Shown: positions 1 to 64,000 of the stretch, piece after piece
Layout of the letters: each line of letters begins with the position of its first letter
How positions within the stretch are numbered: position 1 is the stretch's first letter
Assembly: GCA_012295275.1 (NCBI GenBank)
Contig: CM022670.1
Location: 6,882,001 to 6,946,000 of the forward strand
DNA length: 64,000 nt
Reading direction: 5' to 3'
Origin: Chrysomallon squamiferum
Lineage: Eukaryota > Animalia > Mollusca
Notes under the pieces: model-generated
Database searches by the model: none
Told to the model about the DNA's origin: nothing
Seen by the model: the letters and a program-made list of their open reading frames with translations, nothing else
Program-made: the position numbers and the translations under genes

Positions 1-1579
1 TGAAGATCAAGCTTTAGTAGTTATAAAGTTTGATAATTATTTATGTTTTAATCTTTAGGAAGAAATGTAATACAATAATAATAACAAATCATTTGTAAAA
101 CTAAACAAAGTAACTAATAAATAAAACAAGCTAATAAAGAAATGCACAACAGCATTAAAAACGAAAACTAATAATAATGAAAATAATTATGATTTATCTA
201 TTATAATTCTGTTGCATCAGTTCAAATTCAGTCTGGAAAATAAATTTAAAAATTAGAATTTTTTTTAAAAATTTGTGTTTTTATTTTTTTCCAATTCGGT
301 CTAAGACAACTTAAACAAATTGTCTCATTTTCTGAGTTCTTTCCCCGCAAGCGAATTTCTATTCAGCGGTACAAAAGAAACACAAAAACCCTTTCAGTAT
401 TTTGTAAAAGAAAACTAGAAGACGATTGTCTCTGACGAAACGAGAGACACGACTTGTTGATCTTCACATCTAGAGCAAACAACAGACTCGTCATTTTTCT
501 ACTCACAGAGAACAGCAAGTAAACAACAAGCTGTCTCCTCAATGGCGAATAAAGCTCAGAAAATACTTTCTCTTTAATTGGCAAAAATTCCAAGACCAAA
601 GCACGTTTTTAATCGCGTCTGAAATATAGGAAAGGATAACTGGATGAACCCAAATTTTCTTCTAGATTGAAAATTATTAAAAGAGCAACTTACGTGTTAG
701 TGAACTTGACCCGCTAGATATTCTAGATTTAATTTAAAATACTAACAGTGATATGCTGTGTAAATAATCTCACAATAAAACTGTACTGAATTCGTTTAAC
801 AAAATGTCCAACATAAAAGCAGCTTGCGGCCTACTGTAAGGCTGAGGAATTAAAGACATCAGGATCAGATCTTCAGAATATTTGAATATACTTTCCATTA
901 AAAACAGTGCTGTACCAGAGTCACTGCCGTAAAACTAATTAAGCTGATAATTCAAGGTCCCTAACCATTAGTCCAAATTGCTTAATAATTGTGATAGGAA
1001 TCTGAGATGTTACCTCTACGTGTGCATCGTGATCTGCGATGGGAGAACCCAGCTGATGAAAGTTTCACTGGTGAAGTGATATATAATAGCAAATGACTTG
1101 TGATGATTACACTATGACCATCATGCGACAATAATAGAGTTAAAAAGATCTATAAATAAATAAATAAATAAATAAAAAACAGACAAAAATTACTAAAATA
1201 TTTTTTTTACTACGAATGCATTATTATACATACAAGTTTATATACAAAATTTTACCACTTTTTATTAAGGATCATGATATATGGCATACATAACAAATCA
1301 GGTAAAATAAAAGAATATTTAAAAGATCAACAACATTATTATTAATTTTTTTATTAATTTTACAAATAACTTGTTTAGAGTAAACTGTAAAATATTTCTG
1401 CAAACAATTCACAGAATAGAAACACTACAATTATACAATTTGTTATCAACGACCAAAAAATGTAACAGAATGTAATCAGCAAGTAAACAGACCAAAACAA
1501 AATAAATAAATAAATAAATAAAATATCCCTGAATTAACCATTAATTTAGTATCAGTCTGACCCACAATCCAAACACACA

Positions 1580-1611
<32 letters not shown>

Positions 1612-2895
1612 CACACACACAAAGAACACAAATATATAATAATTTATTTGAATATTTTTTGGCAGTAAGTTAACTTGCAGAAGAAAAAATAGAAAATAAT
1701 TATTGTGGTTTAAAATTAAACAGATATGTAAAGATATCAGAGATAAATGAAAATAGAAAATGCTGATCCTTTGCACGTATAAATATCAGAAACCCTGCCA
1801 TAGATATACAGAAACAGATATATAACCAAACAAAACACTTTTCTTATCACAATTAATAAAATTCAAGAAGAAACTGACAATTTTCTATACATAAACAGTC
1901 GTATATTCTCATTTTGAAGGCCATTTAAAATAATAATAAAAATTAGTCTTATTTTTTAAATACTGCTTTCAAACAAAATATATTTTTTCTTCTTTTTAAA
2001 TATTATAATTATGTCAGCAATATTTTTTTTTTATCCTTTTTTATTCTATTATATTTTAAAATTTCTTTCCTTTGTTTTAACATATCTTCAAAACCCACCT
2101 TTTTTTTATTATAAATATTCTTCTTTTTGGGATATAATAAGTGATGGAGAATATCTACTATTCAGGTGTTTTGATACTACAGTATGCATTATAATTAAAC
2201 TAAATGTTGATTTGATGCCAGTCACATAAATAACAGTCCTGTTATTCTGTCTGTGGTTCACACACTTCATTGATTACAAATTCAACAATCTAAACACTAC
2301 AAAAAATATTTACAAACTACGAAACAATTACAACACACAGAGTGAAATGTCCATCCAAAAATCATTTGTTAAAATATCAATCATAAAAATCTATTTTGTT
2401 TTGTAAACAGAAACACCAGCTTGTGAGAGAAACTACACTTTCTATTTATTTATTTATTTATTTATTCATTTATTAATCATTATTTAAGTTTGTTAAATTA
2501 TTTGAGATTTGTTCAGCCAGTATGAAGAAATAAACTTTACAAGTCTGGATAATTAAGTTACTATTCAATAAGTTTACTTCAATGCTGAGAACATATCTAA
2601 TTATTTTGGCACTTTTATATTTATTTAATTATTTTTGAATATTTACAGAAATTTAAAAAACTAATTAATAATAATTTTTTTTTTTTTAAATATCAATAAA
2701 AAAATAAAAAAAAATAATAAATTCTGATGTCTTTGGCAGACACAGAAAAATAAAATGCAATAAGTCAGAGATCACACAAATGCCATTCATTAAATTAGGA
2801 AGACCAAGATCTGCCCTAAACCTTTAACTGACACAAACATTATTTTAAATTCAAATAAGAAATAGATGGAAAATTCACCCTAACAAACCCCACAA

Positions 2896-2961
2896 AGACT
2901 GGGATATCAAATTTAGGTTTCCACACGACGTGGTTTTAACCCAAATCATCATTATCAGTCT
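2896..2961 (-). promoter_or_regulatory. SECIS element (type II) in the 3' UTR of the PUB-domain gene
   Basis: Minus strand reads AGACUG-AUA-AUGAU-GAUUUGGGUU-AAAA-CCAC-GUCGU-GUGG-A-AACCUAAAUU-UGAU-AUCC-CAGUCU. Helix I AGACUG/CAGUCU; internal loop; AUGA...UGA core; 10-bp helix II (8 Watson-Crick + 2 G-U); unpaired AAA; apical mini-helix CCAC/GUGG. Confidence 0.9.
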
Positions 2962-3516
2962 CAACAAAAACACGCAAAGTTACAGTTATCTCCCCTTCAA
3001 TTCAATGACAGATTTGTCTTGTTGTGGTTACAGAAAAAGACAATTATACAAAAATGTTTATCGACTCGAAAACACCAACACAACACATCTTCCACTGATT
3101 CAAATTGTTGAAATAATGATTCTGTGACATTATAACATCAATGTTCATGGGGTTACATATACACTTAAAAATCGCTATCATTTACAAATAACATTGTGAC
3201 TCGTAATATTTTCAAAAGTTTTCAAAAATGGGGCATTATTATTCAAACATTCCACAACATTTTGATTTAGAAATAGTATATCATAATTTAACCTGAAACA
3301 TACATGACATTATTAAATTCCAGATATGTAATGACTTCAAGAAATTAAAACATGATGGATCCATGATTTTATTCAAAATAAGCACCCAAATGAAAAACAA
3401 AATGTGAAAATAAAACCAGTAAATGAGTTTGTAGAAAACACGAACAGTCTGCAGTCTGTATCTCCGAATGTCTGTCACTGAAGAGGAGGAGATTTAGGAA
3501 AAAACTGACTTGAAAC

Positions 3517-6007
3517 CTAACCTCATCCACCTCCACCCTGAAATATAAAATAAAATTTTACAACAATAATTTTGTCTATACACACTATAAAAAAAAATCA
3601 CTTGACACTTGACACATGATCATTATCAATGTTTTGCCCACTGTATACGAAGACATCCTATTCAAATTATTTAAAAGGAAATGGTAGATTGAAATGCCAG
3701 TGTTTAATTAGTAGTTGTTTGTTATTTATTTATTTATTTATTTTGTCGGTTATTTTATGACACTGTTAAAAATGCCTTGCATTAACCAGTATTACTAATA
3801 TTACTATATTTTTAAAATTGTTTTTGTCGTTAGATATATGTCACAGTTATGACTGGAATACTTACACGATTTTCAAACTTCTTGAATGTGCCAGAGTCCA
3901 ACTTCTTTGCATGCTGAAATGTGAAATACGTAAACAAAAGTTGAAATAATAAAAAAAATCAACTGTATATATTGAAAGTGAGATTTAACTTGTTTCTTCA
4001 TATGGTAAAATTTGTATGCTATTTATTATCCAAATAATCAATGGAACTAACTCATTGTTCTAATTATACTGTTATTTACCATTCAAATATTAAAATGTTA
4101 ATAAAATAAATTACTTGCATTCATTATTTTTACTGTTTATTTACTTTCAAAAAAAGAAAAAGATTATAAATAATTAAAATGAAATTAACTTTCTAAATAT
4201 TTAATAATTAATACAATTATTACAATAAATTATTTCAGTTAATTATTTCTTACTGATTCTTTGACTTCTCTGCTGTTAGCATCTTTCCGATCTGCTTCAA
4301 TCTGAAATGTTCATATGTTTAATTTTTTTATTACACTCAAGTTATACTATTGCAATAATTAAAAGATAATTTTATAAGAATCTTTCCAGATTTATGAGTG
4401 GTCATATAACTGTTAAGTGGCTGCATTACAGTCATAACAATAAAATTAGCAAAATAACATGGAAACATTAATTATTACTGCCGTTAATAAAGATTAACAC
4501 TGGTACAATTCAAAAAACAAAAAACAAACAAAAAATATAATCAAATAATGTATGTTTTTGGACATTTTGTTCCCATTGTAATGTTCAATATTTTTAAATC
4601 ATAATAATAAATATTCTCTCTATCATAATACTAAATATTCTGCAAACAATAATGAATTTTAAATAAATTATAACCAAAAAAACATATTTCTCTTATTAAC
4701 AGTTTGCCAAACAGTTATCCAGATTATAAATAATCAATGTTTTCCATCTTCTTTCTCAACAATTATTAAGAATAAAAATAATATAAACGTTTTTTTTTTT
4801 TATCTACAAGCAACCGACATAAAAATTAGTTATATTTCACTGGTCACATAAAATAATAATTTTTCATTCTAGATTAACATCAATTCATGTTTATCTAATT
4901 TTAACAAACTGGAAGTAATGTACTGACAATGTCTATATTCTTGAATACTGATTTTTACATTTATTTTTAAAAATTCACATTATTCATTTAAAGCCAGTTT
5001 ACATCTTTCAGTCAATAACCTTATAAATGGAGTTTACAGTAAAATAGATTAATCAAAATCAGCTAACATGAGTTTATCTATTTTGTCTTTCAAAACTGCT
5101 TAAAAAAACATCTTTATAAACATTTCTACTGAAATATTGGAGAATGGATTGAGTAAAAACTATTTCTTTATTAATTAATAAGTAATGTGGCAACTTGGTA
5201 AATCATTGATATTTTTTTTCTGAGGTCAAAGGGACAAATCTTTCTGGTACATTCATCAGCTTGTCTCCAATTTCAGTCAGTTTCGCATAGAAAGTTTTTC
5301 TTGTATAAATACTAATTAACTTAAATCTTATGTTTTTAGGTAATCAATGAATCAAGCAAAACAAATAACGCATGAATAATATTAATAATTTTTTCCAATG
5401 TACCTGTTTTTTAATGGCTTCTTTTTCTTTCTTAATTCTCTTTATTTCTTCCATTCTTTTCTGTTTTTCTTCTTCTATCAGTTGTTCCTTTTCCCTTAAC
5501 TAAGATAGAAACAGAAATTTAAATTAACTGAATATTTAATACTACATTTAATCTTATATTTATTATCATTATTTATCAGATTAAATAAATTAATTATACT
5601 GAATACAGTTATCAAAAAAAAGTAATGTACTTAAATGATTAGGGCAAATTATAAAAATTAAATTTTATTTTGAAAATAGACTGGTTAAGAAAGATTTTGG
5701 TTTTGATATAACAAACATTGCTATTATTTTGGATAATTGAATTTTCTTTCATTATTTTAATGGCTCTACAACAAATGAGATATTCTTAATATTACTTAAT
5801 ATTATGAAATATTAGCTTTCTTTTTATGTTGGAATTTTTAGAAAAAATGTTTTAACATTTTTGTAGTAAATACCTCTTCAGGTGTCCATGAAGATGAAAT
5901 GTCTGGAGGTGTCACGACCTTGGGTGCTGCTTGAACAGGAGGCAGAGTGCTGAAATAACAATAATGATGATGTTGATGATGATGACGATAATAATACCAG
6001 TAGTAAC

Positions 6008-6039
<32 letters not shown>

Positions 6040-8334
6040 GAGCAATACTACTACTACTACTACTACTACTAATAAAATAGTGAAAATAAAAATAAAAATA
6101 AGAATAAGAATAATGACGATAATAACAATAATCAGTAATCAGTAATAACATCTAAAGTGAAATTAGTGAAATAATTTACTCAATTTTTATTATTCCATTA
6201 TGTGTATCTTCTTTATGACTGGATGTAACACATGTCTAGGTACTGTGTATACATCTGTGTAAAGTTATATAGTGTGAACTTACTGAAGTTTTTCTTCTAT
6301 TACTTGTACCACACTGTCCACTCTCACACTAGACTCATCAAGATACATCAAGAGTTCATCCACCTGCAAAATAAACACATAAACCGCTTTTAAATAATAT
6401 ATCAGTTTAAAAAATTCTGATACACTCTATGCCAATCATGTGTTTATCTTTCTATCTCTCTTTTAAAAATAATTAATAATAGTACAATATACCCTCGCCT
6501 GTTTGGTTCCCCATTCATGCCCCCAAGATATTGAGGTTAGGCTCTTAACCCTATCGTGATCGTATGTTGGTATACCAGGCACTCATAAACTCAAATCGGT
6601 AAAGCACAAACAATATCAAATTTTTTCAATTATTATTCAATACAGAGTTCATCCATATTTTTTGTGACCTGCAAAATTAAATATTATTACTGAATTGTAT
6701 TATTATTACCTGAAATTTATCTGTCTGTCTTTTTAAATTTGTTCCACTTTCTGTCAATAATATATCAGTTTAGAAAAACTTTTACGGTACAGTAATACTG
6801 TATGGGTAACTATGCTATGTTACTGTCCTCCTGTACAACGTTTCTTTCTGATTAAAATATTGTTTCAGTACAAAATTAAAATGTGTTTACATTATCATTA
6901 CTACATTAGTGAAAGACATAACTGCATGCAATATTACTACATTATTACTGTATTAATGAGTAAGAGTGTCTTTAGAAAGTGTTTGGGAAGCATTTAGTAC
7001 CGTATATAATCTCATAATAGACGTTTTAAAACTGCATCCAATATTAAAAAAAAAAAGGGAATACTGTACTATAAAAAAATAAAAAATAAAAATAATAACA
7101 CACATGTAAAAGCAAGCAATATTCAAAATTAATGTTGCAGTTAGACAAGAGAAGTAAAGTATAATTAATAATTTCTTAAGATTTTAGTATGCTAATCAGA
7201 ACAAGATGTTCTGAAATAATCCTGTTTATACAGTATGTAACTGTGGTATTACATTTACCAACAAACCTCAGTGAATCCTATGTTGTATTTAACTGCACAC
7301 AGTATGATATTACATTTACAAACAAACCTCAGACAATCCTATACTGCATTTAACTGTAAACAGTGTTATTTTACATTTACAAACAAACCTCAGTCCAGCC
7401 AGCAGCAAGCAGAAACTCTTTGGCTCCCTCAAACTTCAACACTTTCTCTTTAACAAGCTTGTTTTCTTTTTTCAACTGTTTGTATTTTTCTTCTCCAGGA
7501 TGCTTCTGAAGATTTCTAACAACAAATGAAAAATAACATGAAAAAAAAATCAAATAAATTAATAAATAATAGTAAAATAAAATAGATATCATCACACTGT
7601 TTGGTTGTCAATTTTCATTATTAAATGTTAAAATAACAGAACAACAAAAAATTGTTTTTAAATGTTTTTAAAAAGTAATACATATATAAATGAAATGACA
7701 CAATAATAAATTATTTGTAACAATACTGTTTGGTAATCTGCTTTGCCATATTAAATTTAAGCAATTCTGTGGAAATTATTAATTTTTATATCTTGTTTCC
7801 TGTGTATTTTGAGATGATACAATTTGCAAAAGTGTAATGCAGACAAATTCAGTGTTAATATGGTTGCTAATCAAGATAAATGATAGCATGCCCTTTCATC
7901 ACTTTTTCTGCTGACATTTTTGTTCACAGCTGAGATTAAAATTAAATGTATGACTGGTTACCTTTTTATTTATATTTAATGCCTAAAGAATTACTACTTA
8001 GTTACTACGCAACAGTAAGTCATTACTTTATTTATAATTATATATTTGGGATTCCAATTTTTGTCTGATACTGTTAAAGATAAATATTCTTGAGAGAAAC
8101 CAAAATGATTTTTCTTCTGAATTCGACAGAACTGTGTTAATATAACAAAGTACTGAACTCATAAAGGACTAACAATGTGAATGTCTCATTATTTATCTGA
8201 ATGAATAACACTCACTGATGAATTTTCAACAAAACACTGAGTGTTGAGTGAAGTTCCTCTTTCTGTATCTCATCTTCAAGAAGAAGCAAACAAGTCTTCA
8301 GAGAGTCAATGTCTTCTGCAACTGCTTCTGCCAT
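3517..8334 (-). CDS. PUB-domain protein (p97/VCP cofactor family) with coiled coil and C-terminal GGGG-U-G; probable selenoprotein, 204 aa with Sec203
   Basis: Hand-spliced GT-AG exons with consistent phases: 8334-8216, 7515-7389, 6363-6284, 5949-5874, 5499-5404, 4301-4254, 3913-3866, 3537-3517 (615 nt). Translation: MAEAVAEDIDSLKTCLLLLEDEIQKEELHSTLSVLLKIHQNLQKHPGEEKYKQLKKENKLVKEKVLKFEGAKEFLLAAGWTEVDELLMYLDESSVRVDSVVQVIEEKLHTLPPVQAAPKVVTPPDISSSWTPEELREKEQLIEEEKQKRMEEIKRIKKEKEAIKKQIEADRKDANSREVKESHAKKLDSGTFKKFENRGGGG(U)G*. LLKI..N...HP.EEKY..L...N.....KV....GA.EFL.AAGW is the PUB/PUG signature. An acceptor (ttttag) lies 2 nt before the ATG, implying a non-coding first exon. Confidence 0.9.
6485..7066. 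mobile_element. Non-autonomous DNA transposon (Tc1/mariner-pogo-type MITE), degraded copy in the intron between coding exons 2 and 3 of the PUB gene
   Basis: Colinear with 52933-53638 and nearly identical over a ~230-bp internal stretch; ends TA|CAATATACCCTCG ... GGGAATACTG|TA. Confidence 0.8.
7218..7393. repeat. ~61-bp tandem repeat, ~3 copies, overlapping the donor of PUB coding exon 2
   Basis: acaaacctcag recurs at 7261, 7322 and 7383. Confidence 0.75.
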
Positions 8335-10375
8335 AACTAAAATAAAATAATTTTCTTGTTAAGAATACTAATATGAACTGATCAGAAAGCTAATATCTCC
8401 TCATTTAGACAAGCTTTCCATATTATATAACAGCTTTGGCCTATTATTAAATTTATTTATACATAATGTACTTTATATTTCAATGCATTTAGTGTTCTGT
8501 GTTAACTGTATTAATATTATCAATTATGTATTCACACTATTCACTGTATTGTATATTGAAATTTGAAAACACTAATACAAGTGATTTGAGGATAAATATA
8601 TGTAATTAATCATTCGTATATTGAATTTTATAACATCTATTAATCATCAGTTGTCGATTTAAAACATGATATAAAATGCTTTACACAAAATTGCAAATAC
8701 ATTATAATCGTTATAAGCAGAAACCTGGCGTTTCGAAATTAAGACGTGTTCGACAATATAATTCGTATTGATATAAATTATAATGCTACTAATTTCACAA
8801 TTAAATAATTTCTTCATTAAACAGTTGTAATACATTGTTAATAAACTTATAAAGTCACGCGCTGGACAAATATGGTTCATTTGTCAATTTTGTATTTTTT
8901 TTTTGCAAACCTTTTGTAGTTTAAAATGTCTGTAAACTATGCTTATCACCTGCCCGTTTTCTATGACAAAGCAAACAGAGTTATCGGTCCTGATTAGGAG
9001 TATTTTTGGTTTTAGTGGAATACTACAAAGTGTAACAAAAAACAACAAAAGAATGGATGAAAACAGGCAGTTTCTAAACAAAGTGAATGTTGAAAATAAT
9101 TATATCAACATAATCCATTAATTGAAATAAGTAAACAGAAAATAAAATATTATAAAATTCCAAAAGCTATATCATTAATAATAAACTTGTAATAAAAAAA
9201 AAAAAAAAAAATGTTTTGTCTTGCCTCTGATATACACTTGTACGTGTAGGAGTAATGAACAGTAAGACGATATACCACTCACTGGATGACCCAGTAAATG
9301 GTCTGTCCACTCTTCCAGTTATTACCAGTGATGTCACACGTCTCCCTCCCAACATGTAATGTTCTATTCTACAGTACGAATGCACAGAAATTAAAGCAAC
9401 AATAACAAAACAAACAAAAAATCATGCGGGTCTTGTTCCATCAGAGACAATGATTGCATGTTGAATAGTGGTTAAACACAAACATAATAACCGAAAGATT
9501 AATAGAATAATGTACTTTTTAAACATGTAATTAACATGTTTTCTTGAATATTAATATTATAAACCTCTTCAGAAAAAGGTGCTTGTTTGTTTGTTGTATT
9601 TTGCTATAGTATGGAGTAGGAAATGTCCGCATCTATAACCCCCCGTTCTCCTCAGTGTGCCCCAATTCTCCCCGTTTCCAGTCAACTTCAAAAACATCAG
9701 AGAAATAATAACATCGATCAAACAATGAATGTCAGTGATTGACAATGAAGATGATTGTTAATAATATGCGTTATAATAATAAAAATACTGGAAATAGGAC
9801 TGACATTTATTTTAACATGCAAGTATAACAATAATATTAAACGATACGTGACGTAATTATAAAATTATAACATTGACGTCAAAAAATAAAAATAAAATAA
9901 AATAAAAAAGTATCTCAGTTATATGTATAAATAGATAAATAAATAAATAATCAAAAATAAAAGTATTATCATAATTTAAAAAATAAGAGAAGAAGAAGAA
10001 GAAAAGAAAAGAAGAAGAAAAAAAAAGGAAACGAAAGAAAACAGACACGATAACAACAGTTCGCCATGCCTCTTCAGCCCATGCCTGAGTACGTATAATA
10101 ATTATTATTGTTGCTGTTGTTATTATTGTTGATGTCGTTGTTGTCTTGTTGTTCTATATTTATTATTTCTTTATATTTCTTTCTTTCTTAATTAATTAAT
10201 TAATTTATTTATTATTACAAAAACTATATATATTGCTTTTATTTCTTGTTGCTTGTGTACAATCGAATCAGTGGAACCGAGCATGAAATAACATGAACAA
10301 TAATAATGATACATTTATAACAGTTTGATGTGGCAATGAATAAAAATGAATTAAACTAATATTTTTAACTCGTGA

Positions 10376-15478: not shown

Positions 15479-16366
15479 TCTTTTGCAATAAAGTGGTTTT
15501 ATTGTTGCAAATGTCGCGAAACTGAAATTTCAAAATCAACATTAACGTTCGTACTCAAATCGTTAAATAAAAAAAGCGTATCTTAATTTTAATAGATGAA
15601 TAGAGTACTTTTTGATTTGTATAATTTTAAATAATTATATAATAACAGTTTGTATTAAAAACTATTTTAAAATCAGGAGAAGCACATTGAAAATGTCACA
15701 AAAGAATTCTGCGAGTGGGTTGCCGACCTAGGAGGAGAGAGTAACAATATAGAGGAGTCGACAATCACTAGTCTGTTTGCCAGCGGTTACGAAACGAAGC
15801 CTGCCCTCTCTGTTCCCATCCACGTCGTTGAACTCACCAACGTTCCCCAAGAACTCCGCATGTCAGCTACAGCACCACAGCAACAGCCTGAAACCAGCAA
15901 GAAAGAGCAGAAACATTGCCAGAAAAAAAAGCGATGGGTTTGTTCAATTTATTTTTTAAAATATTTGTTTTCTTCACATTGTTTTTGCTTTCTGTTTTAT
16001 TTATTTATTTAATTTTTAAATTTTATTTTAATTTTAATTGTTTTTCTTCATATAATAGATATTTATAGTCTGTAGTTTTGAGGATAAAAATAGTTACATT
16101 TTGTAGTAAATTAATATTACTGTTTTATTTTTGTTTTATGTGATAATATAGTTTTGAATTAGCTTTTAACTAAGACATATAATAATTTCGAAATGTAACA
16201 ATAACAGTTTGATTTAAACATTTTTAAATAGCAAAACAAAGTTCATATTAAAATTCATCATCATTTTAAAATATTTTGAAATTTAACAAATTTAAGAGAT
16301 CCATCAAGTATGCGTTACCTAAATGTTTTCTATGATTAATAAAGAGTTAATTCCCTTTAGTGAATT

Positions 16367-17009: not shown

Positions 17010-19353
17010 GTTTATATACCGAGACCGTGCTTGTCTAAGATGTAAAATACCTGTTTATAATTAACTTTGTTCACTATATATATACATATATATTATATAT
17101 TTAACCAAAAACAAAATCTTAATTTTTTTTTTTTTTTTTAATGATACTTCTTAGTCTGAAGAGACAATAACCAAACTAAACTATTTTCTGCACATATTTT
17201 TACAATTTTAGTGATTTTTGGAAAACAAAAAAACTAATCTATTTCTAATAACAGAAAATATTTGTTTATATTTTAACACTAAATTAAAAAGTGAAACATT
17301 TAAATAAAATATATTAGCCATATTTGGAGAAAGAGTGGTGGTCAGTAATACATCTCAAGTAATATATTTTAGTAAAACCATTTATTATTCTTCAAGTTAT
17401 TATACCACTGTAATTAGCTGTAATATTTCTGTAGTAATTATGTATCATGAGTTTCATACTTTTAATTTTACAGTATCATCTTTATTCCTCAGAATATTTC
17501 CAATAGTTTCTTATTAATATGTAATTTATTTTTAATTCCATAAGTTAAAAATTCATATTACGGCATTGATATCTATAGCTGATCATTTTATTCAGTATTT
17601 TGGTATCAAAACTGTGAAATAGACCATTTTTCATTGGGAATATTGTGGCGGTTATGGGCTAGGTAAATTGAACCATTTATGTAAATGAAATGCTTAACTT
17701 CATTCTACAGGCAGGACTTTTTTGGTCATTATGGAATGGGTAAAATTTTTAATTCAGCATCTTGATAATTTATTAACATATTGTATAGGCATATTTTGGT
17801 AATTATAGTGTGTCTAAACTATTTAATTATGTATCCAATGCAGGAATATTCTGGTAAATATGAACCAAGCTGGGTGAAATTCAAATATGGTGCCTGGTAC
17901 CTGAAACCAAAATTATGGCAGAAAAGAGATTATGATGTGCCACTGGTTGATCCAAAAGAACTGAAAAATCAGGAGATGTCCGAGACAAAGAAACGGAGTC
18001 ACAACTTGGTATTCATTACATTAAATATTCACTTAGTTTCAAAAAGTACTTTTATCAAATTTTACATTTTATATATTTGTGATTTACCTTCTTCTGCTTA
18101 AGATATTTGTAGTGATCATTGTAAATCTGAGTAAAAATCTTTGAATGAGACTGTTTTGTTTATTTCAAGAAAATTATAATCAGATCAGACAATAATATAA
18201 GAATGCCACAGTGATTTGTAGATGCTTTTTACCTTTTTGTTTCATGTATTGGGATGGAACAAAAGTTCATAGCATTTTTCAGTAGGTGGTGTTTCAGCAT
18301 GTGATTTCATTTCATGTATTATTGAAATATAAAAAAGACATACATGTTCTGAAAAGTGAACAAAATGGCACATATGTGGTCGGATAAATAACTAAATATT
18401 GTGTATGAATTTCACTTAATTAATGAACTTTTGTTCCATTCTAATATTTATAAGAAAAAGAAAACAGAATGTTTCAAATGAAGATATTTTATGTTTCAGA
18501 ATATAGAGCTTTCACAGATGCATGGCTCAAAGGCATTCATGGAATTTATAGAGAAGAAACAGACTCGAAAACCTGAAGTAAGAATTTTCACAGAACTGTT
18601 AATCACAGTTTTCTGTTTAAAATATATTTTTATAGTTTTGAAATTTAGCTTCCACATCTTTTGTTCTGTATCCATTTGAAATGACAAAGCTGTATGCTAT
18701 TGGATTGAGCATTACTCATGATGTCATTTTACATTCACCAATACAGACAGGACTTAGCTTATCACAGCTTACTGTCATCACTTCCAAATACCAAGATCAC
18801 CAACTCTGCATTTTTGAGAAGTATTTGTTAAAATAAGGGTGACAATTTTGAATTCTTTATAAAAAACAGCCCCAGGTGATGGCCAGATTATCTCCTCCTG
18901 TGTTTGAAAAATTCATTAGTGTTTCTTAATTAGATAAAGACCAATCAGTTTATATAAAACATAAATCAATAAATCATTAGATCATTATTGTTTTTTTACT
19001 TCCTAAAAAATTTAAAAGAATATAAAGAGTTTTTGGACAGCTTTGTGTATTAAATTTAGCTTCAATATTTAAAAATGAAAATATATTTAATATTAAATTT
19101 AATTATCCATTTTTAAAATGTTTAAAGTGATAGTTGAGTTATTTTTATGTAACTGAAATTTTTTTATTATTATTATTATTGACATTGTTCATTTTTAGCT
19201 TATAATTATATTTTGTTTTAGTTTTTGGAACAAGTCTCTGAGATTCAGAAACAACAGGAAGAAGAGGAACGTTTGAAACTTGAGGCTGAGATGGCTGTGA
19301 AACAGAAACGAACATCTGTCAACCAACCGTCAGCTAAAACGAAATCAAAATAA
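11303..19353 (+). CDS. FAM47E: FAM47 family protein (FAM47E-like), 471 aa, 9 coding exons
   Basis: Exons 11303-11379, 11818-11974, 12555-12776, 13117-13334, 13921-14026, 15677-15937, 17844-18008, 18500-18577, 19222-19353 (1416 nt, all GT-AG, phases consistent). Motifs recognised as FAM47-like: PWYKERL, WLFVKDGLDDFRDG.PP, HPLALYPHLEE, KEFCEWV..LGG, LFASGYETKP, KYGAWYL.P.LW. Confidence 0.88.
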
Positions 19354-27204: not shown

Positions 27205-28209
27205 TTAAGTCTTAATGTTGAATTCTTTACACCACACCGTGGCCCACGAGTTATAGTCCGTGATAGGAGTTATCTCCCTTGTTTTCTGAACGACTCTTGG
27301 CGAGAGAGGAACTTGGCCGTTTTTGTGTCGGATCGTGTCTAGGATGTCCATTGCACTCTCCAGTCTGTACGTCAACACGAGGCGTCGGTCGTGTGGAATG
27401 GTCTGCAACGACTGCGTCCTTTTCAGACTCCGCGGCGACAGATTCAAAGACGATATCGTCTGCGACGACGGCAAGCTGGGTCTACGTGACAGAAGTTTTC
27501 CCTGCGAGTCTTTCTGCTCAGCGACACTGTGCCACATGACGTCGCTCTGCTCGTCCGCGTCCTGCGGCTCCTGGTCCTCCTCGCACGACGACTTCTCGCT
27601 CTTCGTCTCCGACGTCGTCTCCAAGCCGCTGACGCTTTTCGTCTTCTTCCGTATCCCGATGGGATTCATCGGCGTCTTGTTACGGACGAGAAACGTGTTG
27701 CACTCGGGGTGGCTCTGCACGAGCTGGCTGTGCAGAACGTCCTCGTAACCCTTCATCAGCGAGTACTGAGCCTCCGGGGAGAGAAACGACGAGAATCGAG
27801 CCGCTGTTGGCATTTTGTGGATCACCTCCATCGTGTTCGCTCTCTCGACCGCGCCGCCGCTCACCTTGTTTTTCATCTGGAACGCCAGCCTGCATTTAAC
27901 CAAGCTCTTCACTTTGTTTCCCAGAGCCAGGAACCGCGGCTTTCCGCCGGGATTCGTGTAGTGCATTGGCGTGAACGAGTTCATCGTCGCTCTTCGCTGC
28001 AGACATTTTGCACCTGTCGTCTTCTCCACCTCCGTCACTGGCGGTTTAGAACTCAGCTCGTTGGATCCTAAGCAGTTAGTGGAATATCTTTTCACGACTC
28101 GTTTGTCCGGTCTCGTGGTAGGTTTACTAACCACCCGTTTCTCACCTGTTAGCGTTTCTTTGGGTCTTTCAGTCGTTTTAGAACTTTGCGATGTGGTTGA
28201 ATTTGGCAT
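27205..28209 (-). CDS. Uncharacterised 334-aa protein, single coding exon, basic and Ser/Thr-rich, probably largely disordered
   Basis: Longest ORF in the window, with a GC/CpG-rich coding-like composition against an AT-rich background. A candidate acceptor (catag, ~28223) just upstream of the ATG suggests a 5' UTR intron. No domain recognised. Confidence 0.75.
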   Translation of the reverse strand: MPNSTTSQSSKTTERPKETLTGEKRVVSKPTTRPDKRVVKRYSTNCLGSNELSSKPPVTEVEKTTGAKCLQRRATMNSFTPMHYTNPGGKPRFLALGNKVKSLVKCRLAFQMKNKVSGGAVERANTMEVIHKMPTAARFSSFLSPEAQYSLMKGYEDVLHSQLVQSHPECNTFLVRNKTPMNPIGIRKKTKSVSGLETTSETKSEKSSCEEDQEPQDADEQSDVMWHSVAEQKDSQGKLLSRRPSLPSSQTISSLNLSPRSLKRTQSLQTIPHDRRLVLTYRLESAMDILDTIRHKNGQVPLSPRVVQKTREITPITDYNSWATVWCKEFNIKT

Positions 28210-30084
28210 TGTTACACAGAACCTATGTTGCAGTTATTATCTTTTTTTTTTAATTCTTATCTAATTTATAAATATATCTTGTAAGTCTTTCGTTGCACAA
28301 AATAATAAACTCCTTATTTCATTTCTATAATTCCAAGAATACAAGAAAAACAAAAACAACAACAACAAGAAAAATCCAATTGAAAATTGTATCGTTTCAC
28401 CAGATTAATTTTCCAAAAATGTTTGCCCTTGTTATTTTGTTTTAGAAACAGCAACAACAACAAACAACCAAAACAATCATTTAAGATTCACGTACGGTGA
28501 AAGTGCAAGAACGAATCCGTATCATGATCCCTACTTCACAATAACGTCTGCTGGAAAATCTCTCCGATTTTAATAACTGGTTTAATACAGTGAGCGACAG
28601 CTGTTTGTACAACATTAAGCCACGCCTTCTGCTTTTGCAAAGTCAGTTTTCATTAGTTGTTAGTGACATTGTTTCTTCACGTTTGTTGTGATCTACGCCG
28701 CAGTTGTCACTGTGCCAAGAGAAAGCGTGTCTAGTCAATAGCTGGCTGGCTTTACGTGGTCCAGTACATACTAACGTATTGTGTAATACGCTCTTGAAAT
28801 CGCAGATTAATGATGTTGTAAACACACTCTCAGATTTAACCCCAGACCGAATATTCGTGCCTAAAGCTACAAACATTTTAAAATAATACACTAATGACCT
28901 TGTATCCTTAGTCATATGATATTAATTTTGTTTATTTCTAACAGAATTAAAAAGGACATGTACAACAGTTTTAGAAATTAAATAAGCGATTTATCATTAA
29001 AGATACAAACTTGTTGTTGTTTTTTTGGACGTTTTTGAACAGCAGCTATGTAGAAACATTTTTTTAAAATATCTTGCTTTGTTAGGAATAGGAGGATTGC
29101 CACTATTTTCAGGATGTTATTGGGAATGAACATTTGCTACCGCGATCTTTGTATGAGTCATTCATTCATTCTTCTACACCATAATTCAGAACTTAGTGCT
29201 TTCATCTGCTTAAACTTTAATCCATTATTCATTTATTCATTGACTCCTTTATTTGCTAAGCTAGTTACAGACAAGCTGATAGACAGACATTCAGACTTTT
29301 AGATAGATGAATGGATTAACAGATACGACAGATAAAGAAGATAGACATAGACATACAGACTGACAGAGAGACAAACAGAAGGACTGACACACAGAGAAAG
29401 AAATCGATGAAAAAGTTACCTTATTAAAAGTTAATTTGCAAAATGTGCTATTATTGTGTGTTGGTTAATTTTCATATTCATTTATTTTTTTTTTTTTTTT
29501 TTTTTTTGTTGTAAGCAAACAAAAAAAAAAAAAAATAAAAAAAATATATATATATAATTTAAATAAAATCAACATAATAAATACATAAAAGATCTGATAT
29601 CATATTATAGTCATGATATTCAGTTCTTACATTCTTTTTCAATGAGAAGTATGATATTGTTCACGGTTCGCTCATGTAGACAAAACATGTTTTCGTTATT
29701 TACCTGATATCGACTCAGACGACCACTGGCTAATAATTAGCTGTTTAAAAAAAAATCATTAACACGGACCATGCGGTTAGCTTTCCGTGTCAGTTATACA
29801 GACAACAATGTGCGTTAATATATGACTGATTTTCCAGCGGAAGTCTCTCTTCGTCATCGACCAGTCGAACAAATCGTTAACGTCCTCGACGTGTTCAGCA
29901 TTCCGCGACGATCACAACAACAGCAGTCGTTTGTGAGACTGTACCTGTGATGATGCGGACGTGTAGCGTATTACTGATGTTTCTAAGGAATTGTTTTATA
30001 TTAATTTTTTTATATATATTTTTTTTTATTATCATTTATATAAGTGTTGTTTGATACGTGTCAGTAATAATAATAATAATACCT

Positions 30085-45170: not shown

Positions 45171-45960
45171 TTATTATTATTATTATTATTATTATTTTAT
45201 TTTGTATCTAAAATAATGCTTATATATTTATTTGTTTCTTTATTATCTATTTATCTATCTATATATGTGAGTGTGTATGTATGTGTGTATATATATGTCC
45301 ATCTCACTATCTTTCTCTCTTTCTGTCTATCTTTCTTTCTGCCTATCTATCTATCTATCTATATGTAAATAGATATAGATATATCATTCTTTCTTTCTGT
45401 CTCTGTGCATGATTATTTGAATGTCAATCAGTCTTTTTATTTCATTATTAAAAATGTCAGTCTTCAAGTCCTACTACATCAAAACGAAAGTATAAACAAA
45501 TTAAACTAACATTTCCAGGACCCTACACACTCATTATTCCCACTGACGCGGCCTTCGCTGCGGTCCCCCAGGCTGACATGGACAAGATAGTGAGCAACTC
45601 GGCATCGCTCAAAGACCTCATTCAGTACCACACTCTGATCGGCGAAGTGTTCGGCTGGGATCTCACCTACGGCGGAAGAATAACTCCGACAGCCAATGGT
45701 CACTCGGTGAGAGTGTCTGAGAACCAGAACGTACGCATTTCCTTGTATCCAAACTGTACAGGATGCGTTTTGTTCTGTCTTTGTGTACAAAGTCATGTTT
45801 TATATTTTAGGGATACTTTTGTTTTGATTGTTTGTTTTATTTTATTTTATTTTATTTGTTTTTTCGTTCGTTCGTTCGTTCGTTCGTTCGTTCGTTTGTT
45901 TCAATTCATTTCATTTTATTTTATTTCATTTCATTTTATTTTATTTTATTTTATTTTATT

Positions 45961-46007
<47 letters not shown>

Positions 46008-47244
46008 TTTTATTTTACTGTATTTTTATTTTATTTTTTTTTATTTTATTTTATTTCATTTCTTTTCATTTATTTATTTATGTATTTATGTATTTATGTA
46101 TTTACTTATTTATTACTGAAGATGATAAAGCATATTACTTAGACATGCATAACGAGACTAAGAAGTTTCAGAAATTCATGTAAATGTATGTTAATTTCTT
46201 TATCCATCTAATCTCACTGTAATTATTATTTTAAAAATGTATTGCAAAATCATCCCTAATTTAAAATATGTATAGCTATCATTTATTCATTTATGCATTT
46301 ATTCATGACTCTATTCTTCATATTATGTTGCATCCAATCGTAAAATGACGGTGTGATGCATTTTAACATCGTACACCAGTTCAACCCAACGTTAATATGA
46401 ATTTTCAAGTGCAGCGTAATCCTTAATTATACCGAAATACAAGCAAAAAAATTTACTCTTTATCACATCGCAGTAATTTAAATATTACTTTTAATGCAAT
46501 ACTGTCAGGATCGGATATAAGACTTTGTTAAGACCGTGTTTATATAACAGGTGAAATGAAATTATTACAGTCTCTAAGCCAGAGTCTCAAACACGGGGCC
46601 CGCGGGCCGCATGCCGCTCATAGACTAATTATATATTTATGGCCCACGACTGTCCCTTTGTCCCACGCATGTAAATCTGCTCTGTCATTGCCACAGGCTT
46701 GCCGTATTCCAGAAAATAAGATCTAATATTCAATAAAATATTTGATATATTACATTTATTTATTTATTTATCAGCTTTGCTGTGCATCTCCTGAAAATTA
46801 TAACTCTTTCACCTCCCCCATTCCAAACCCTTTATTCTTGGCACGTTGGATCTCTTCTCGAGTATATAATGACCCTTTTCTTTCCTTGAGTTTGAAACCC
46901 CTGCTCTAATCTTTAATTTTTTTTTTTTTTTTTTACGATAATGCGATTTCGGGTGTTGATATTGCTGTACGAATTGTTGAGAAATGTTTTTCAGACTGTG
47001 TTTTTCAACAACGCTAAGGTGCTGAAGATAGAAACCGAGGCTTCTAACGGACTCGTGTATCTGATCGACACAGTGCTAGACGTTCCTGAGGGAACAGTTC
47101 TCAGCGTGCTTGAGAAGTACAACCTGACAACCTTCGTACAGGCCGTCCACAAAATACGTTACGCCGTCACGTTAAACCATACGTCAGGTATACGTTTGTC
47201 TGTTCGTTTATTTATTTATTATTATTTTTTATTATTATTATTAC

Positions 47245-47310
<66 letters not shown>

Positions 47311-48932
47311 TTATTATTATTATTTATTTTTTTTTTTTTTTTTTTTTTTTCAGTCTATCGGCACTTCACGGTTTTTGCTCCAGATGACGCTGCATTCCAG
47401 AAACTGGACAAAGCCCAACGAGATCACATTCTAGGCAGTACAACCTATGCATCAGGTATAAATACGTTCTAGACAGTACTACCTATGCATCAGGTATAAA
47501 TACGTTCTAGGCAGTACTACCTATGCATCAGGTATAAATACGTTCTAGGCAGTACTACCTATGCATCAGGTATAAATACGTTCTAGACAGTACTACCTAT
47601 GCATCAGGTATAAATACGTTCTAGGCAGTACAACCTATGCATCAGGTATAAATACGTTCTAGGCAGTACTATCTATCCTTCTATTATTAAATATATTGTG
47701 ATATTATGCAACTGATTATTTGTTGCCCAATATTTGTTTCGTATAAAATAGTGGTACATGCTAATCCACCCCAACGGTCATTCATACTGATTATGGGTAA
47801 TGGATTTTACTATCTTTAGTTTCACTTTAACTGTGGTCTTTCGAAGATCAGCCATGAACCATAATGTTGAATGTAGAGTAAAAAGGAGAGAGGGAGAATT
47901 GAACCTATAACCTGACGCATCTCCTGCCAGTGACCTCACAGTTGAAAACAGACAGCTAGCTACCTTATTAAATCACATCATAAAATTATTATTTTTTTAA
48001 ATTGTATTACGTTTAAAATTTTATTACATCAGTCTATTTATCTGTGATTGTCTGTCTGTCTTTCTAGAAATCTGTGTAGCTGTCTGTCTGTTTTTCTGGA
48101 AATCCGGGTTTGTCTCATTGTTAATTTCATTATTTTCACAGAACTAGTTCGTTACCACATCCACGACGGATATTTGCACATCAAAAGTCTTGACCACAAC
48201 GGCAATATCGGCACTTTGCTCGGTGGTCACGTGATCGGCGTTGACATTAGCAGTAAGAAGCATTTAATTCAGTCAGATACAATATTTAAATTATGAGTCT
48301 GATAAAATATTTATCAATTTGATAAAATATTTAAATTATCTGCTATGATAAAAAGTTTAAATAAACTAATTTTATCTGTACAATATTATAATTAAATTAT
48401 CAACTTATCATTGTGATAAGATGTAAACAAATTAAAATAATGAAAAAAAAGAAGAAAAAAAACATTAAAAAAACCCTTTATTTATTGATGTCATTGGCTC
48501 AGCCACAAAAGGCATGCTTGAATACTTCTATTATTAAGTACGTAATTCTCTACTATCGCCCACATCCCAAGTCTGTTTATTATGTAAAACAGGTCTGAAG
48601 CACTCTTACATTATTAGTACACTAACATACACACACACACACACATCGACAGACATACATTCATATGCACACCTAATTTTGTTTTACTTTGTAAAGTTAT
48701 TTTTTTTTCCATTACTACTACTACTACTACTACTACTTCTACTACTACTAGTAGTATACTACTACTACTTCTACTACTACTACTAGTATACTACTACTAC
48801 TTCTATTACTACTGCTACTACTACTACTATTATGATTATTACTATTATTTTTATGTTTATTATAAAATAATAGTAATAATCATAATAGCAATAGTAGTAG
48901 CAGTAGTAAAGGTAGTAGTAGTAGTAGCAATA

Positions 48933-61541: not shown

Positions 61542-62355
61542 TAAACAGTAATAGAAGTAATAATAATAATCATGAATGGTAATTGTGATGGTTGTAATAA
61601 TAGTAATAATCGAAAGCCAAAAAGTACAGCAGCAGCAGCAGTAGTGGTAACAGTAATAGTAGCAGAGCTGTAGTAGTTATAAATAACAGCAGTAGTATTA
61701 TTAGAAGTAACAGTAGTAGTAGTAGCAGTGGTGTGGTGGTGGTGGTAGTGTAATAGTAATAGCAGTAGTAGTATAAAAATATTGTTATTCTTTCCCGTTT
61801 ACGCTTGTAAACAAGGTGTTATTTCTTTATTTTCAGAACCGTACGGTTTCGTTCCAACTATGCTGTTTCAGAATTCCAGTTCACCAACAAAGGACACAGA
61901 CTGTTTCGACATCTTGGAGAACTCTGCCAACGTCACGAGAACAAACTACGTCATCTACTGCGATAACAACTCTTCTCACGTCACCGACATAAAGGTTGAC
62001 AAAGATGCGCCTCCTTTCTCCATCCACTTCAAAGATCCCTGCCTCCGTCTTTTCATTAAGCAGCACTGCTACGACGGCCTCCGCGTACCCAACGTTGTGC
62101 ACTACATCTGGTTTTCCAAACACATGATGGACATCTACGGTTTTCTGAGCATGCTCAGTGCGAAGAGGTTTTTGCAACCGTGCGCTGTCTTACTTCACGC
62201 CGACGTTTTGCCGTACGGAATATTCTGGAGTCACGTGCTTCGTCTAGTACCGAACATAGTGCACGTGCAGCGTCGTGCTCCGGACAATATTTTCGGCAGA
62301 CCGTTTGGTTTCATACAACACAAGTCTGACATTGCCAGAATAGAAGCGTTAATGG
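56674..62355 (+). CDS. Type II membrane glycosyltransferase, GT32 family (alpha-1,4-GlcNAc/Gal-transferase-like), 5' part only
   Basis: Exon 56674-56821 (short basic tail, TM segment LMMLSFLLLQTIIIILVMF, donor G|GTGAG, phase 1) joins in frame to 61837-62355 (VPNVVHYIWF ... HKSDIARIEAL, donor G|GTAAG). The expected downstream GG.Y.D.D exon was not found in the window. Linking the two exons is inferred from phase and topology. Confidence 0.78.
58313..58710. repeat. 33-bp minisatellite, ~12 copies
   Basis: Unit ttttatgttagtacatactgataaatgtttaaa. Confidence 0.9.
59030..59250. repeat. Degenerate ~39-40-bp tandem repeat, ~5 copies
   Basis: Recurring aggtgg..ttttagaccacttttact motif. Confidence 0.7.
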
Positions 62356-64000
62356 GTAAGATAATAATATAAATAAATGCAGTATAAGCTTCGACATATT
62401 TAGATATCTGGGCCCGAAACCCTTGGCTTCTTATATATATATTTTTTTTTTTGCTATACTTTACTTTTACAGACTTGATCTCTGACTGGCAGCTAAAATG
62501 CATTTAGGTTATGTGTCGACATCACCACAGGAACATTTAATTAGCACACGCAGCTTACAAAAGAGATAATACCGGTATCATATTTTGCCTGGTGACTCGA
62601 TCATTAGTGCTTTGAAACATTTAGCGAGTTATGTTGTGTATGATAATAACCGTTTTGGTGTTTGTTTACCTGTAATCCCATTTGGTTTGTATGTTTTTAA
62701 AAAGCCATAAAAAGTTATTTTATATGCAAAGCAGCAAAGGGCAAGAAACGATGCGTGTAACGAAAGGATTATCGGGTATTACCGAAGAGCTTTCATCTCG
62801 GCCACATTAGCAGTGCCACTGGCAGTCATTTCGTAACGTTATAGGACGTCACACGCAGCAGTTACTCAAGCAAAGAAGAGCAAATCGCCACAAGTGATAA
62901 AAGAACGACAAAGACGTAGACCGTAACTCGAAGCGCGTCCCCTTTAAACGCCGAGTATCAGTTACAACCTCAATGACTGGTACTTTTCTTGTCAGCTCAA
63001 TTGTGTATGTCAGTCTAGTTCATGATGATAACATTATGTCGTCTTGGCATTTCTTTTTGAAAGGATAAAAAAAAAGAGAGAAAAGGAAGCCTTTAATTTA
63101 TCTCCTCTGAACGCTGTGGGTAAATAATTGGTAGATTCGTGATGAGTGTAGACCTGTTTTGAATTTTAAAATAAAAACTTGTAAAGATCCGCTGTCAATG
63201 GCGGTGTGGTGGTTGGTCCGGTGTCGTGGTGTGAAGAGTATCAAACATGAGAGGTTCCATTATGGCCGTTTCACACCGCCTGGCCACAGGGAAGTTTGTT
63301 CCGCACACAGTCCGACATCTGAAGGTCCACGTGTTACTTCTCTTTGACGATTCCAGTCCACCGTAAAGTTATCAAAACCTGACCAAAATTACGATTAAAA
63401 AAAGACTTCTTTGAAGAGTAGCTTCCACTGTTTGCTTTTCAAACTAGGTTTTACGTCGGTTTCCAGCCTTGTTGTCCAGAAATCCTTGAACGTTGAGGCC
63501 TACGTGCTCTCTTCGTCGTAAGGCGACAGAATCAATCAAAATATCTGTCTCTGTCCTGTAACCAGTGGCCATCACATTTTACCGATGCTGACGTTTCGCA
63601 ACAATGGAATTCACTAAACAAACAATGACAGACACTTTTTTTTCTTTAACTTATAGAGATTTGTGGAATTAAAGTACAGTCCAATTAGCGTGAACAGAGA
63701 ATGGTGAACGTATGATATAAAGAGCACTGATCTTTTTAAACATACGGTGTTTCTTTCTTTCTTTCTTTTTTTTTCTTTTAAAAAAAAAAAAAAACAAAAC
63801 AAAAACCCGAAGAGAAACGTTTGTGGTAGACATGTAATAGAGTCAGGATATTATTCATACTAATTAATTTTAATCAAGTTTTTATATTTCTATTTATTAA
63901 AGTTTTTTTCACCAGGGTCATGACATCCATGCTTTTGAATTTCTGCATTTGACCATCGTGGTTTTGTCCTGCTTACATTATTTTATTTTACTCTTGCTCT

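What the first reader, a model, noticed from the sequence alone, without database searches (positions are those of the whole stretch)
2896..8334. Candidate novel selenoprotein: soluble PUB-domain protein ending GGGG-Sec-G, with a canonical SECIS
Seen in sequence: the spliced PUB gene's last coding exon reads GGT GGA GGT GGA TGA GGT TAG (TGA at 3523-3525, TAG at 3517-3519), and a type II SECIS lies on the same strand about 560 nt downstream (2896-2961). Established: a Gly-rich tail with Sec at or near the penultimate position is the hallmark of SELENOS (ends GGUG) and SELENOK; these are ER membrane proteins linked to p97/VCP and ERAD. PUB domains bind the C-terminal tail of p97. Inference: this protein has no TM segment or signal peptide and joins a PUB domain and coiled coil to a SelS-like Sec tail, so it may be a cytosolic p97-associated selenoprotein. 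I do not recognise it among the standard metazoan selenoprotein families. Automatic annotation would stop at the TGA and miss it.
Basis: partly seen in the sequence, partly recalled or inferred. Interest (0 to 1): 0.96.

Follow-up and report, generated by a model that had tools for sequence, protein, structure and literature searches.

The report
Hidden PUB-domain selenoprotein family in animals
This mollusc-type gene has a stop-like UGA codon and a selenium-insertion hairpin in the same spliced RNA, a pairing also seen in coral-like and protist-like relatives, so it likely encodes an overlooked selenium protein, predicted to act as a redox helper of the p97 protein-unfolding machine.

Summary
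Observation confirmed. Spliced RNA contigs from 3 of 4 runs (one study) fix eight coding exons ending GGGG-TGA-G-TAG and run on through the SECIS (Rfam SECIS_1, 40.6 bits, the only hit at threshold in 64 kb). The gene is no orphan. It belongs to a wide family (PUB domain, long helix, Gly-ending tail) with named members in gastropods, bivalves, a chiton, an annelid and Porites corals, whose database proteins stop at the Gly run. In 13 of 13 confirmed metagenome homologues the stop after the glycines is TGA, with a second stop 0-1 codon later; 7 of 10 with enough UTR have SECIS-like hairpins (controls 3 of 64). Sec call about 0.96. It is not SELENOS/K (no membrane helix, no nearby resolving Cys). 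A p97-docked redox role is inferred; thioredoxin fusions and swaps support it, but one pocket tyrosine is replaced. Novelty is partial: a 2020 algal survey lists a 'PUB domain-containing' selenoprotein family by name (sequences not readable here), probably this one, but not among animal families. The 2025 metazoan review was not available. The scan's index held no earlier finding on it.

The parts
8911..8982 (-). 5' UTR exon (upstream limit approximate)
   Evidence: RNA joint 8336/8911, CT..AC, sides 51-72 nt in X1-X3
8216..8336 (-). Coding exon 1; ATG at 8334-8332; first helices of the PUB fold; the only Cys (Cys15); Ile38 at the place of PNGase Tyr38
7389..7515 (-). Coding exon 2; PUB core with Asn41, Lys50, Tyr51, Lys55, Asn58, Lys64
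   Evidence: Pfam PF09409 48.6 bits; RNA joints; residues
6284..6363 (-). Coding exon 3; end of PUB domain
5874..5949 (-). Coding exon 4; Pro-rich linker
5404..5499 (-). Coding exon 5; charged long helix (predicted coiled-coil-like arm)
   Evidence: helix 130-173 in the model of homologue P0008
4254..4301 (-). Coding exon 6; end of helix with the conserved I-x-x-D-R motif
3866..3913 (-). Coding exon 7; conserved tail, predicted flexible; shortened in this gastropod branch (lacks the DIGVDL stretch of most members)
3517..3537 (-). Coding part of last exon: Gly4-TGA-Gly-TAG
3523..3525 (-). In-frame TGA, inferred Sec203 (penultimate residue)
   Evidence: frame fixed by RNA; TGA at this place in 13 of 13 homologous loci
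2897..2960 (-). [quoted passage not shown]
   Evidence: Rfam RF00031 40.6 bits; inside the spliced RNA contigs
2450..3516 (-). 3' UTR (3' end not mapped; AATAAA cluster at 2474-2450; further RNA contigs lie at 1639-2433)

Best explanation
The gene makes a spliced RNA with an in-frame UGA two codons from the end and a SECIS in its 3' UTR, and likely encodes a soluble 204-residue selenoprotein that is predicted to dock on the tail of the p97/Cdc48 unfoldase and would act there as a redox helper. Steps. (1) Shown: exon structure, frame, SECIS in the same RNA, PUB domain, no membrane helix. (2) Strongly inferred (about 0.96): UGA is read as Sec, giving the end Gly4-Sec-Gly. (3) Inferred from known PUB biology (about 0.7): the PUB pocket binds the C-terminal PIM peptide of p97, next to the pore from which unfolded clients leave. 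(4) Inferred (about 0.65): the long helix is a spacer arm and the flexible tail carries the selenol to emerging clients or partner cofactors, where it breaks disulfides or reduces oxidised thiols. With no Cys near the Sec, the mixed selenenylsulfide would be resolved by a thioredoxin or glutathione system in trans, or by the distant Cys15 in the lophotrochozoan branch. It works like a soluble counterpart of SELENOS, built from different parts, and is a member of a wide eukaryotic family that gene callers cut at the UGA.
For: Frame and SECIS in RNA contigs of 3 of 4 runs laid; Rfam SECIS_1 above threshold, sole hit in the window. Homologue DNA: a pattern that did not include the stop codon gave 82 loci; 13 were confirmed by the family profile; first stop TGA in 13 of 13 and a second stop 0-1 codon later in 13 of 13, against TGA first in 22 of 58 and a close second stop in 3 of 58 chance loci. 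The 13 are about 9 independent groups. SECIS-like hairpins in 7 of 10 loci with at least 200 nt of UTR, 0 of 14 reverse complements, 3 of 64 control loci (Fisher p 7e-6); Rfam also finds sub-threshold SECIS_1 in the two coral-like loci (26.7 and 23.3 bits). Proteins: 55 of 150 best hits match the tail profile and 51 of the 55 end in Gly. Pocket: Asn41 33 of 35, Tyr/Phe51 35 of 35, Asn58 34 of 35, Lys/Arg55 28 of 35, the residues that bind the p97 PIM in PNGase and UBXD1 (PMC6995525, passages). Model of homologue P0008: PUB fold, 44-residue helix, low-confidence tail; best fold matches are p97-binding PUB domains. Redox link: P0052, P0130, P0140 have PUB + helix + Gly/Ser linker + WCGPC thioredoxin in place of the Sec tail, and L014 has a WCGPC thioredoxin fused in front of PUB + helix + TGA tail. 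SELENOS precedent: penultimate Sec, reductase in vitro, p97 partner (PMC3628699, PMC13524514, passages).
Against: No experiment shows selenium in the protein. No Cys-for-Sec homologue was seen among the 55 tail-bearing hits, so the usual Sec/Cys pair test is unmet. The first Tyr of the 'essential' YxxN(x)9Y pocket motif is Ile here and Tyr in only 3 of 35 members; SPATA2, which has Val there, does not bind PIM peptides. No resolving Cys near the Sec: Cys in the last 20 residues in 3 of 35, no Cys at all in 5 of 35, Cys15 in 11 of 35. The thioredoxin-swap proteins form one clade, so count as one event. My SECIS scan was written after I had looked at the UTRs, so it is not blind; 3 of 10 loci failed it (L014 and L043 pass only relaxed rules, L033 is weak), and only 2 of 13 loci gave any Rfam SECIS match, both under threshold. 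RNA support is contigs from one study. For named animal homologues only protein ends were seen, not DNA.
Confidence: 0.6

Rival explanations
1. It is a selenoprotein, but its PUB domain binds something other than p97 (another PIM-bearing protein, a deubiquitinase as with SPATA2-CYLD, or its own acidic tail), so the redox tail works elsewhere in the ubiquitin system.
For: First pocket Tyr replaced by an aliphatic residue in 27 of 35 members; SPATA2 precedent. The family tail motif D-I-G-V-D-L-N is acidic and loosely PIM-like (my inference).
Against: The other pocket residues, including the K/RxxN motif that holds the free p97 carboxylate, are kept; nearest solved relatives by sequence and fold are PNGase and UBXD1 PUB domains. 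The tail has low confidence in the model, with no sign of a fixed fold-back.
Confidence: 0.2
2. The Sec tail is a switch rather than a catalyst: selenium supply or redox state decides between the full end (Sec-Gly) and a truncated di-glycine end that is destroyed or binds differently, which tunes the amount of a p97 adaptor.
For: Termination at the UGA would leave a Gly-Gly end in most members. That di-Gly ends of truncated SELENOK/SELENOS are degrons for CRL2-KLHDC2 is recalled, not read here. No resolving Cys. SELENOS has regulated Sec-less forms.
Against: Thioredoxin fusions and swaps point to catalysis. A degron for failed products is quality control that fits a catalytic Sec equally well.
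Confidence: 0.15
3. TGA is an ordinary stop; the protein ends in four glycines and the hairpin is chance or a relic.
For: All database proteins end there; no Cys homologue; folding z-score only -1.5.
Against: TGA in 13 of 13 homologues across GC 0.20-0.61, a conserved second stop, usually after Gly, SECIS-like hairpins far above controls, and an Rfam hit above threshold in this very mRNA. Truncation at C-terminal Sec is the known main annotation error (PMC12822975, passages).
Confidence: 0.04

Closest known systems
'PUB domain-containing protein' selenoprotein family of algae (Jiang et al. 2020, PMC7539508)
   Same: A PUB domain in a predicted selenoprotein; listed as one of the least widespread algal families. 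Protist-like members of the family found here carry the same TGA tail, so identity is likely (about 0.7).
   Different: The main text gives only the name: no architecture, Sec position or function. It is not among the 19 families said to occur in animals too, nor among the paper's 3 new families. The supplement could not be read, so identity is untested.
SELENOS (SelS/VIMP)
   Same: Penultimate Sec after glycines, long helix then disordered tail, link to p97.
   Different: SELENOS is a single-pass ER membrane protein with a resolving Cys174 14 residues before Sec. This protein has no membrane helix, no Cys near Sec, no SelS Pfam match among those shown, and would bind p97 at the C-terminal tail through PUB.
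SELENOK (SelK/SelG)
   Same: Gly-rich disordered end with Sec near the C-terminus and no resolving Cys (recalled).
   Different: Membrane-anchored and without a folded domain (recalled); no SelK_SelG Pfam match among those shown.
UBXN6/UBXD1 and PNGase (NGLY1) PUB domains
   Same: Same PUB fold and most pocket residues; NCBI names the orthologues 'UBX domain-containing protein 6-like'.
   Different: No UBX or transglutaminase domain in a 204-residue protein; first pocket Tyr replaced; Sec tail absent from those proteins.

Membership tests
Eukaryotic selenoprotein gene | In-frame UGA in the spliced mRNA | tested here: met
   RNA joint 3866/3537 and whole-CDS arithmetic
Eukaryotic selenoprotein gene | SECIS in the 3' UTR of the same transcript | tested here: met
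   Rfam RF00031 40.6 bits, inside the same contigs
Eukaryotic selenoprotein gene | UGA and SECIS conserved in homologues | tested here: met
   TGA 13 of 13; hairpins 7 of 10 against 3 of 64
Eukaryotic selenoprotein gene | Homologues with Cys at the Sec position | tested here: inconclusive
   None among 55 tail-bearing hits of the best 150; 1192 hits exist at E 0.001 and only 150 were seen
Eukaryotic selenoprotein gene | Selenium shown in the protein; Sec machinery in the host genome | not testable with these tools
   No experiment possible; no genome held
SELENOS | Single transmembrane helix | tested here: not met
   Max 19-residue hydropathy 0.95; 1 of 35 homologues reaches 1.6
SELENOS | Penultimate Sec after glycines | tested here: met
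SELENOS | Resolving Cys about 14 residues before Sec | tested here: not met
   Only Cys is residue 15; 3 of 35 have Cys in the last 20 residues
SELENOS / SELENOK | Match to the SelS or SelK_SelG Pfam profile | tested here: not met
   Not among the 25 families shown of 72 for 35 members, nor for 13 further proteins; the 47 weakest families were not shown
p97-binding PUB cofactors | PUB domain | tested here: met
   Pfam 48.6 bits on exon 2; 35 of 35 members; fold matches
p97-binding PUB cofactors | YxxN(x)9Y pocket motif | tested here: not met
   Ile38, Asn41, Tyr51: first Tyr replaced
p97-binding PUB cofactors | K/RxxN motif for the p97 terminal carboxylate | tested here: met
   Lys55, Asn58
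p97-binding PUB cofactors | Measured or modelled binding to p97 | not tested
UBXN6 | C-terminal UBX domain | tested here: not met
   No UBX family among those shown
Algal 'PUB' selenoprotein family (Jiang 2020) | Sequence homology and same Sec position | not testable with these tools
   Supplement too large to be read; family named from a conserved domain or best hit (Methods)

The most novel reading that the evidence does not exclude
An ancient selenoprotein family, so far uncatalogued in animals, persists in molluscs, annelids and corals as well as many protists: a soluble PUB-helix-Sec protein that holds a selenol at the exit of the p97 pore and serves as the cytosolic disulfide reductase of the unfoldase, with a thioredoxin domain standing in for the Sec tail in one lineage.
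Probability: 0.45. Interest if true: 0.87.

Novelty: new variant of a known kind. Interest (0 to 1): 0.74.

Why it matters
The animal selenoprotein list is treated as nearly closed (21 families in six invertebrates in 2012; 19 in vertebrates in 2026, found by homology to known families only). A family present in molluscs, an annelid and corals but cut at its UGA in every record seen here would add to that list and show that homology-only searches miss C-terminal Sec families. It would also be a third selenoprotein design tied to p97, the first soluble one, and it gives a direct test of an open question: what reduces disulfides and oxidised thiols on clients as p97 unfolds them. The protein is small and soluble, so binding and redox assays are simple.

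Tried and rejected
Alternative splice donor 2 nt earlier (would remove the TGA frame): rejected by RNA joints. First exon-2 boundary guess (7513) was wrong and corrected to 7515. Run X4 showed no contig over the CDS or SECIS; a hole in contigs proves nothing. Folding z-score of the SECIS was not significant. The search for related loci could not use the 35-sequence alignment. The third word-based protein search gave only 5 hits and no taxonomy. Locus L076 matched the profile weakly (E 0.004, motif only), has no stop after the glycines and was counted as a chance match among the controls. The 4-sequence structure model was poor (pLDDT 55) and was not used. The PUB tree (66 rows, 103 columns, quick method) is mostly unresolved: it neither shows nor rules out one origin of the tailed family. 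A VIM-type motif (consensus recalled) was found in 0 of 35 members and not in this protein; the helix-motif count in the same script used wrong columns and was ignored. No complex prediction was made. Papers not held: Gobler 2013 and 2011 on Aureococcus, the 2025 metazoan selenoproteome review, Baclaocos 2019 and one recalled degron paper. A search for the recalled name 'PUBSP' gave only unrelated papers in the 10 listed of 38. The scan's own index gave nothing relevant.
Full report
1. Observation. The minus strand holds a gene of eight coding exons from ATG 8334 to TAG 3517, 615 nt, with GT-AG introns. The last exon reads four Gly codons, TGA (3525-3523), GGT, TAG. The frame hinged on the donor of exon 7. 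Five runs hold the stretch; I laid all five. Contigs of three RNA runs of one study (X1-X3) join 3866 to 3537 and show five more coding joints and a 5' UTR intron; the remaining joint follows from contig lengths, 154 of 154 and 97 of 97 letters. The fourth RNA run had no contig over the gene body. The same contigs run unspliced through the SECIS. Rfam scores SECIS_1 at 2960-2897 with 40.6 bits, above the gathering score of 35; it is the only hit at that level in 64 kb. It has the AUGA/UGAU core, AAAA bulge and apical mini-helix of type II and starts 556 nt after the stop. Exon 2 matches Pfam PUB. Hydropathy peaks at 0.95.

2. What it is. The exon-2 search found a Gigantopelta aegis protein, 73% identical over the whole length, so the host is likely a related gastropod. 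NCBI records of it and of three Haliotis orthologues end at or just before the Gly run. A profile search of 1.84 billion representatives gave 1192 hits at E 0.001, of which 150 were returned. Of these 150, 55 match a profile of the tail (partly by construction) and 51 of the 55 end in Gly; none shows Cys at the Sec place. The ESM Atlas has PUB clusters of this size with Mollusca and Basidiomycota as commonest labels, a lead only. The shared anatomy is PUB domain, linker, long charged helix and a tail F-x-D-I-G-V-D-L-N-x-G-G-G; the gastropod branch of this window has lost the middle of that tail. An AlphaFold model of the chiton member (35-row alignment, mean pLDDT 86) shows the PUB fold, a helix at 130-173 and a low-confidence tail; its best structural matches are UBXD1 and PNGase PUB domains.

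3. Is the TGA Sec? I scanned metagenome contigs with a tail pattern that ends within the glycines and does not include the stop: 82 loci. Thirteen matched the family profile clearly; one weak match (L076) went to the controls with the 68 chance loci. In 13 of 13 the first stop after the glycines is TGA; a second stop follows at once in 2 and after one codon in 11 (Gly in 9, Ser and Arg once each). In chance loci the first stop was TGA in 22 of 58 and a close second stop occurred in 3 of 58. The 13 are not independent: L006 and L081 are one gene, L010 and L031 are 81-82% identical to the Porites cluster, L021, L033 and L052 are related; about nine groups remain. A SECIS-type scan of my own, written after I had seen the UTRs, found hairpins in 7 of the 10 loci with at least 200 nt of UTR, none in the 3 short ones, none on 14 reverse strands, in 0-4 of 40 shuffles each, and in 3 of 64 control loci (p 7e-6). 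L014 and L043 have good hairpins under relaxed rules, L033 only a weak one. Rfam itself found SECIS_1 only in the two coral-like loci, below threshold. Together this is the standard signature of a C-terminal Sec, the class most often cut by annotation (PMC12822975, passages). I put the Sec call at about 0.96. It remains a prediction.

4. How it likely works. PUB domains of PNGase and UBXD1 bind the last residues of p97 through YxxN(x)9Y and K/RxxN motifs (PMC6995525, passages). This protein aligns without gaps to the PNGase stretch and keeps Asn41, Lys50, Tyr51, Lys55, Asn58 and Lys64; position 38 is Ile, and is Tyr in only 3 of 35 members. SPATA2, with Val there, binds no PIM, so p97 binding is likely, not certain. 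For the tail, two fusions argue for thiol-disulfide chemistry: three complete proteins and one fragment have PUB, helix, the start of the tail and then a thioredoxin domain where the Sec end would be (one clade), and L014 carries a WCGPC thioredoxin in front of a full TGA-ending member. SELENOS gives the precedent of a disordered, penultimate-Sec tail that is a reductase in vitro and partners p97 (PMC3628699 and PMC13524514, passages). Unlike SELENOS there is no Cys near the Sec; Cys15 is kept in 11 of 35 members, including the named mollusc and annelid ones, and 5 of 35 have no Cys. I therefore commit to a p97-docked reductase arm, recycled in trans, at about 0.6 overall. Rivals: another PUB partner (0.2), a selenium- or redox-dependent switch (0.15), plain stop (0.04).

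5. Comparison with what is known. It is not SELENOS, SELENOK or UBXN6 by the features tested. Jiang et al. 2020 (PMC7539508; I read the abstract, sections 5, 14 and 31 and passages) list 'PUB domain-containing protein' among 42 algal families, as rare, not as one of their three new families and not among the 19 shared with animals. Its supplement could not be read and may hold the sequences that decide identity; the earlier source of the name was not found. The 2012 table of six invertebrates, with a gastropod, an annelid and a cnidarian, has 21 families and no PUB (PMC3473315, passages). The 2026 vertebrate survey covers 19 families and searched known families only (PMC13134290, passages). 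PMC6627142 has no 'PUB' in its main text; PMC7409322 passages added nothing. Searches for a report in animals: (3 papers, only the algal one relevant by listing); none showed one in listings or abstracts. The library lacks most subscription papers, including the 2025 metazoan review and the Aureococcus papers, so absence from print is not shown.

6. Verdict. A real, transcribed, very probably Sec-encoding gene of a wide and mostly unannotated eukaryotic family, likely named once for algae and apparently not yet for animals. New variant of a known kind; interest 0.74.

Noticed in passing
L021, L033, L052 (and P0171): A branch with an EF-hand pair fused in front of PUB + helix + TGA tail, suggesting calcium control of the family in some protists.
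   Followed up: partly
L014:218-1279 (-): Thioredoxin (WCGPC) + PUB + helix + Gly-Gly-TGA-TAA, with a GUGA-core SECIS-like hairpin 114 nt after the TGA; Sec would be the last residue.
   Followed up: partly
L043, around 1501-1545 (+): AT-rich locus that reads as a PUB protein under NCBI table 6; ends Gly-Gly-TGA-TGA and has a SECIS-like hairpin with an unusual AGGA core.
   Followed up: partly
P0124; P0110: P0124 ends Cys-Trp-Gly, which would give a CxxU motif if a TGA follows; P0110 has a partial thioredoxin-like domain and a weak UIM match before PUB.
   Followed up: no
ESM Atlas clusters: Two PUB clusters of about 185 aa labelled mostly Basidiomycota; if real, they are the place to look for Cys forms or for fungal Sec use.
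   Followed up: no
window 7255-7397 (-): The end of exon 2 with its splice donor recurs three times at about 61 nt spacing in the intron; the RNA contigs use the first donor.
   Followed up: no
window about 6500-7050: High-copy repeat inside intron 2-3 (contig depth about 27,000 in the presumed DNA run X5), also present in RNA runs with its own variants.
   Followed up: no
window 45452-45901 and 46917-47384 (+): Fasciclin-domain exons (Pfam PF02469).
   Followed up: partly
window 27205-28233 (-), 15671-16012 (+), 17769-18101 (+), 61749-62372 (+): Exon-like open frames without a Pfam match at E 0.001; the last has a DxD-glycosyltransferase look (my impression, untested).
   Followed up: partly
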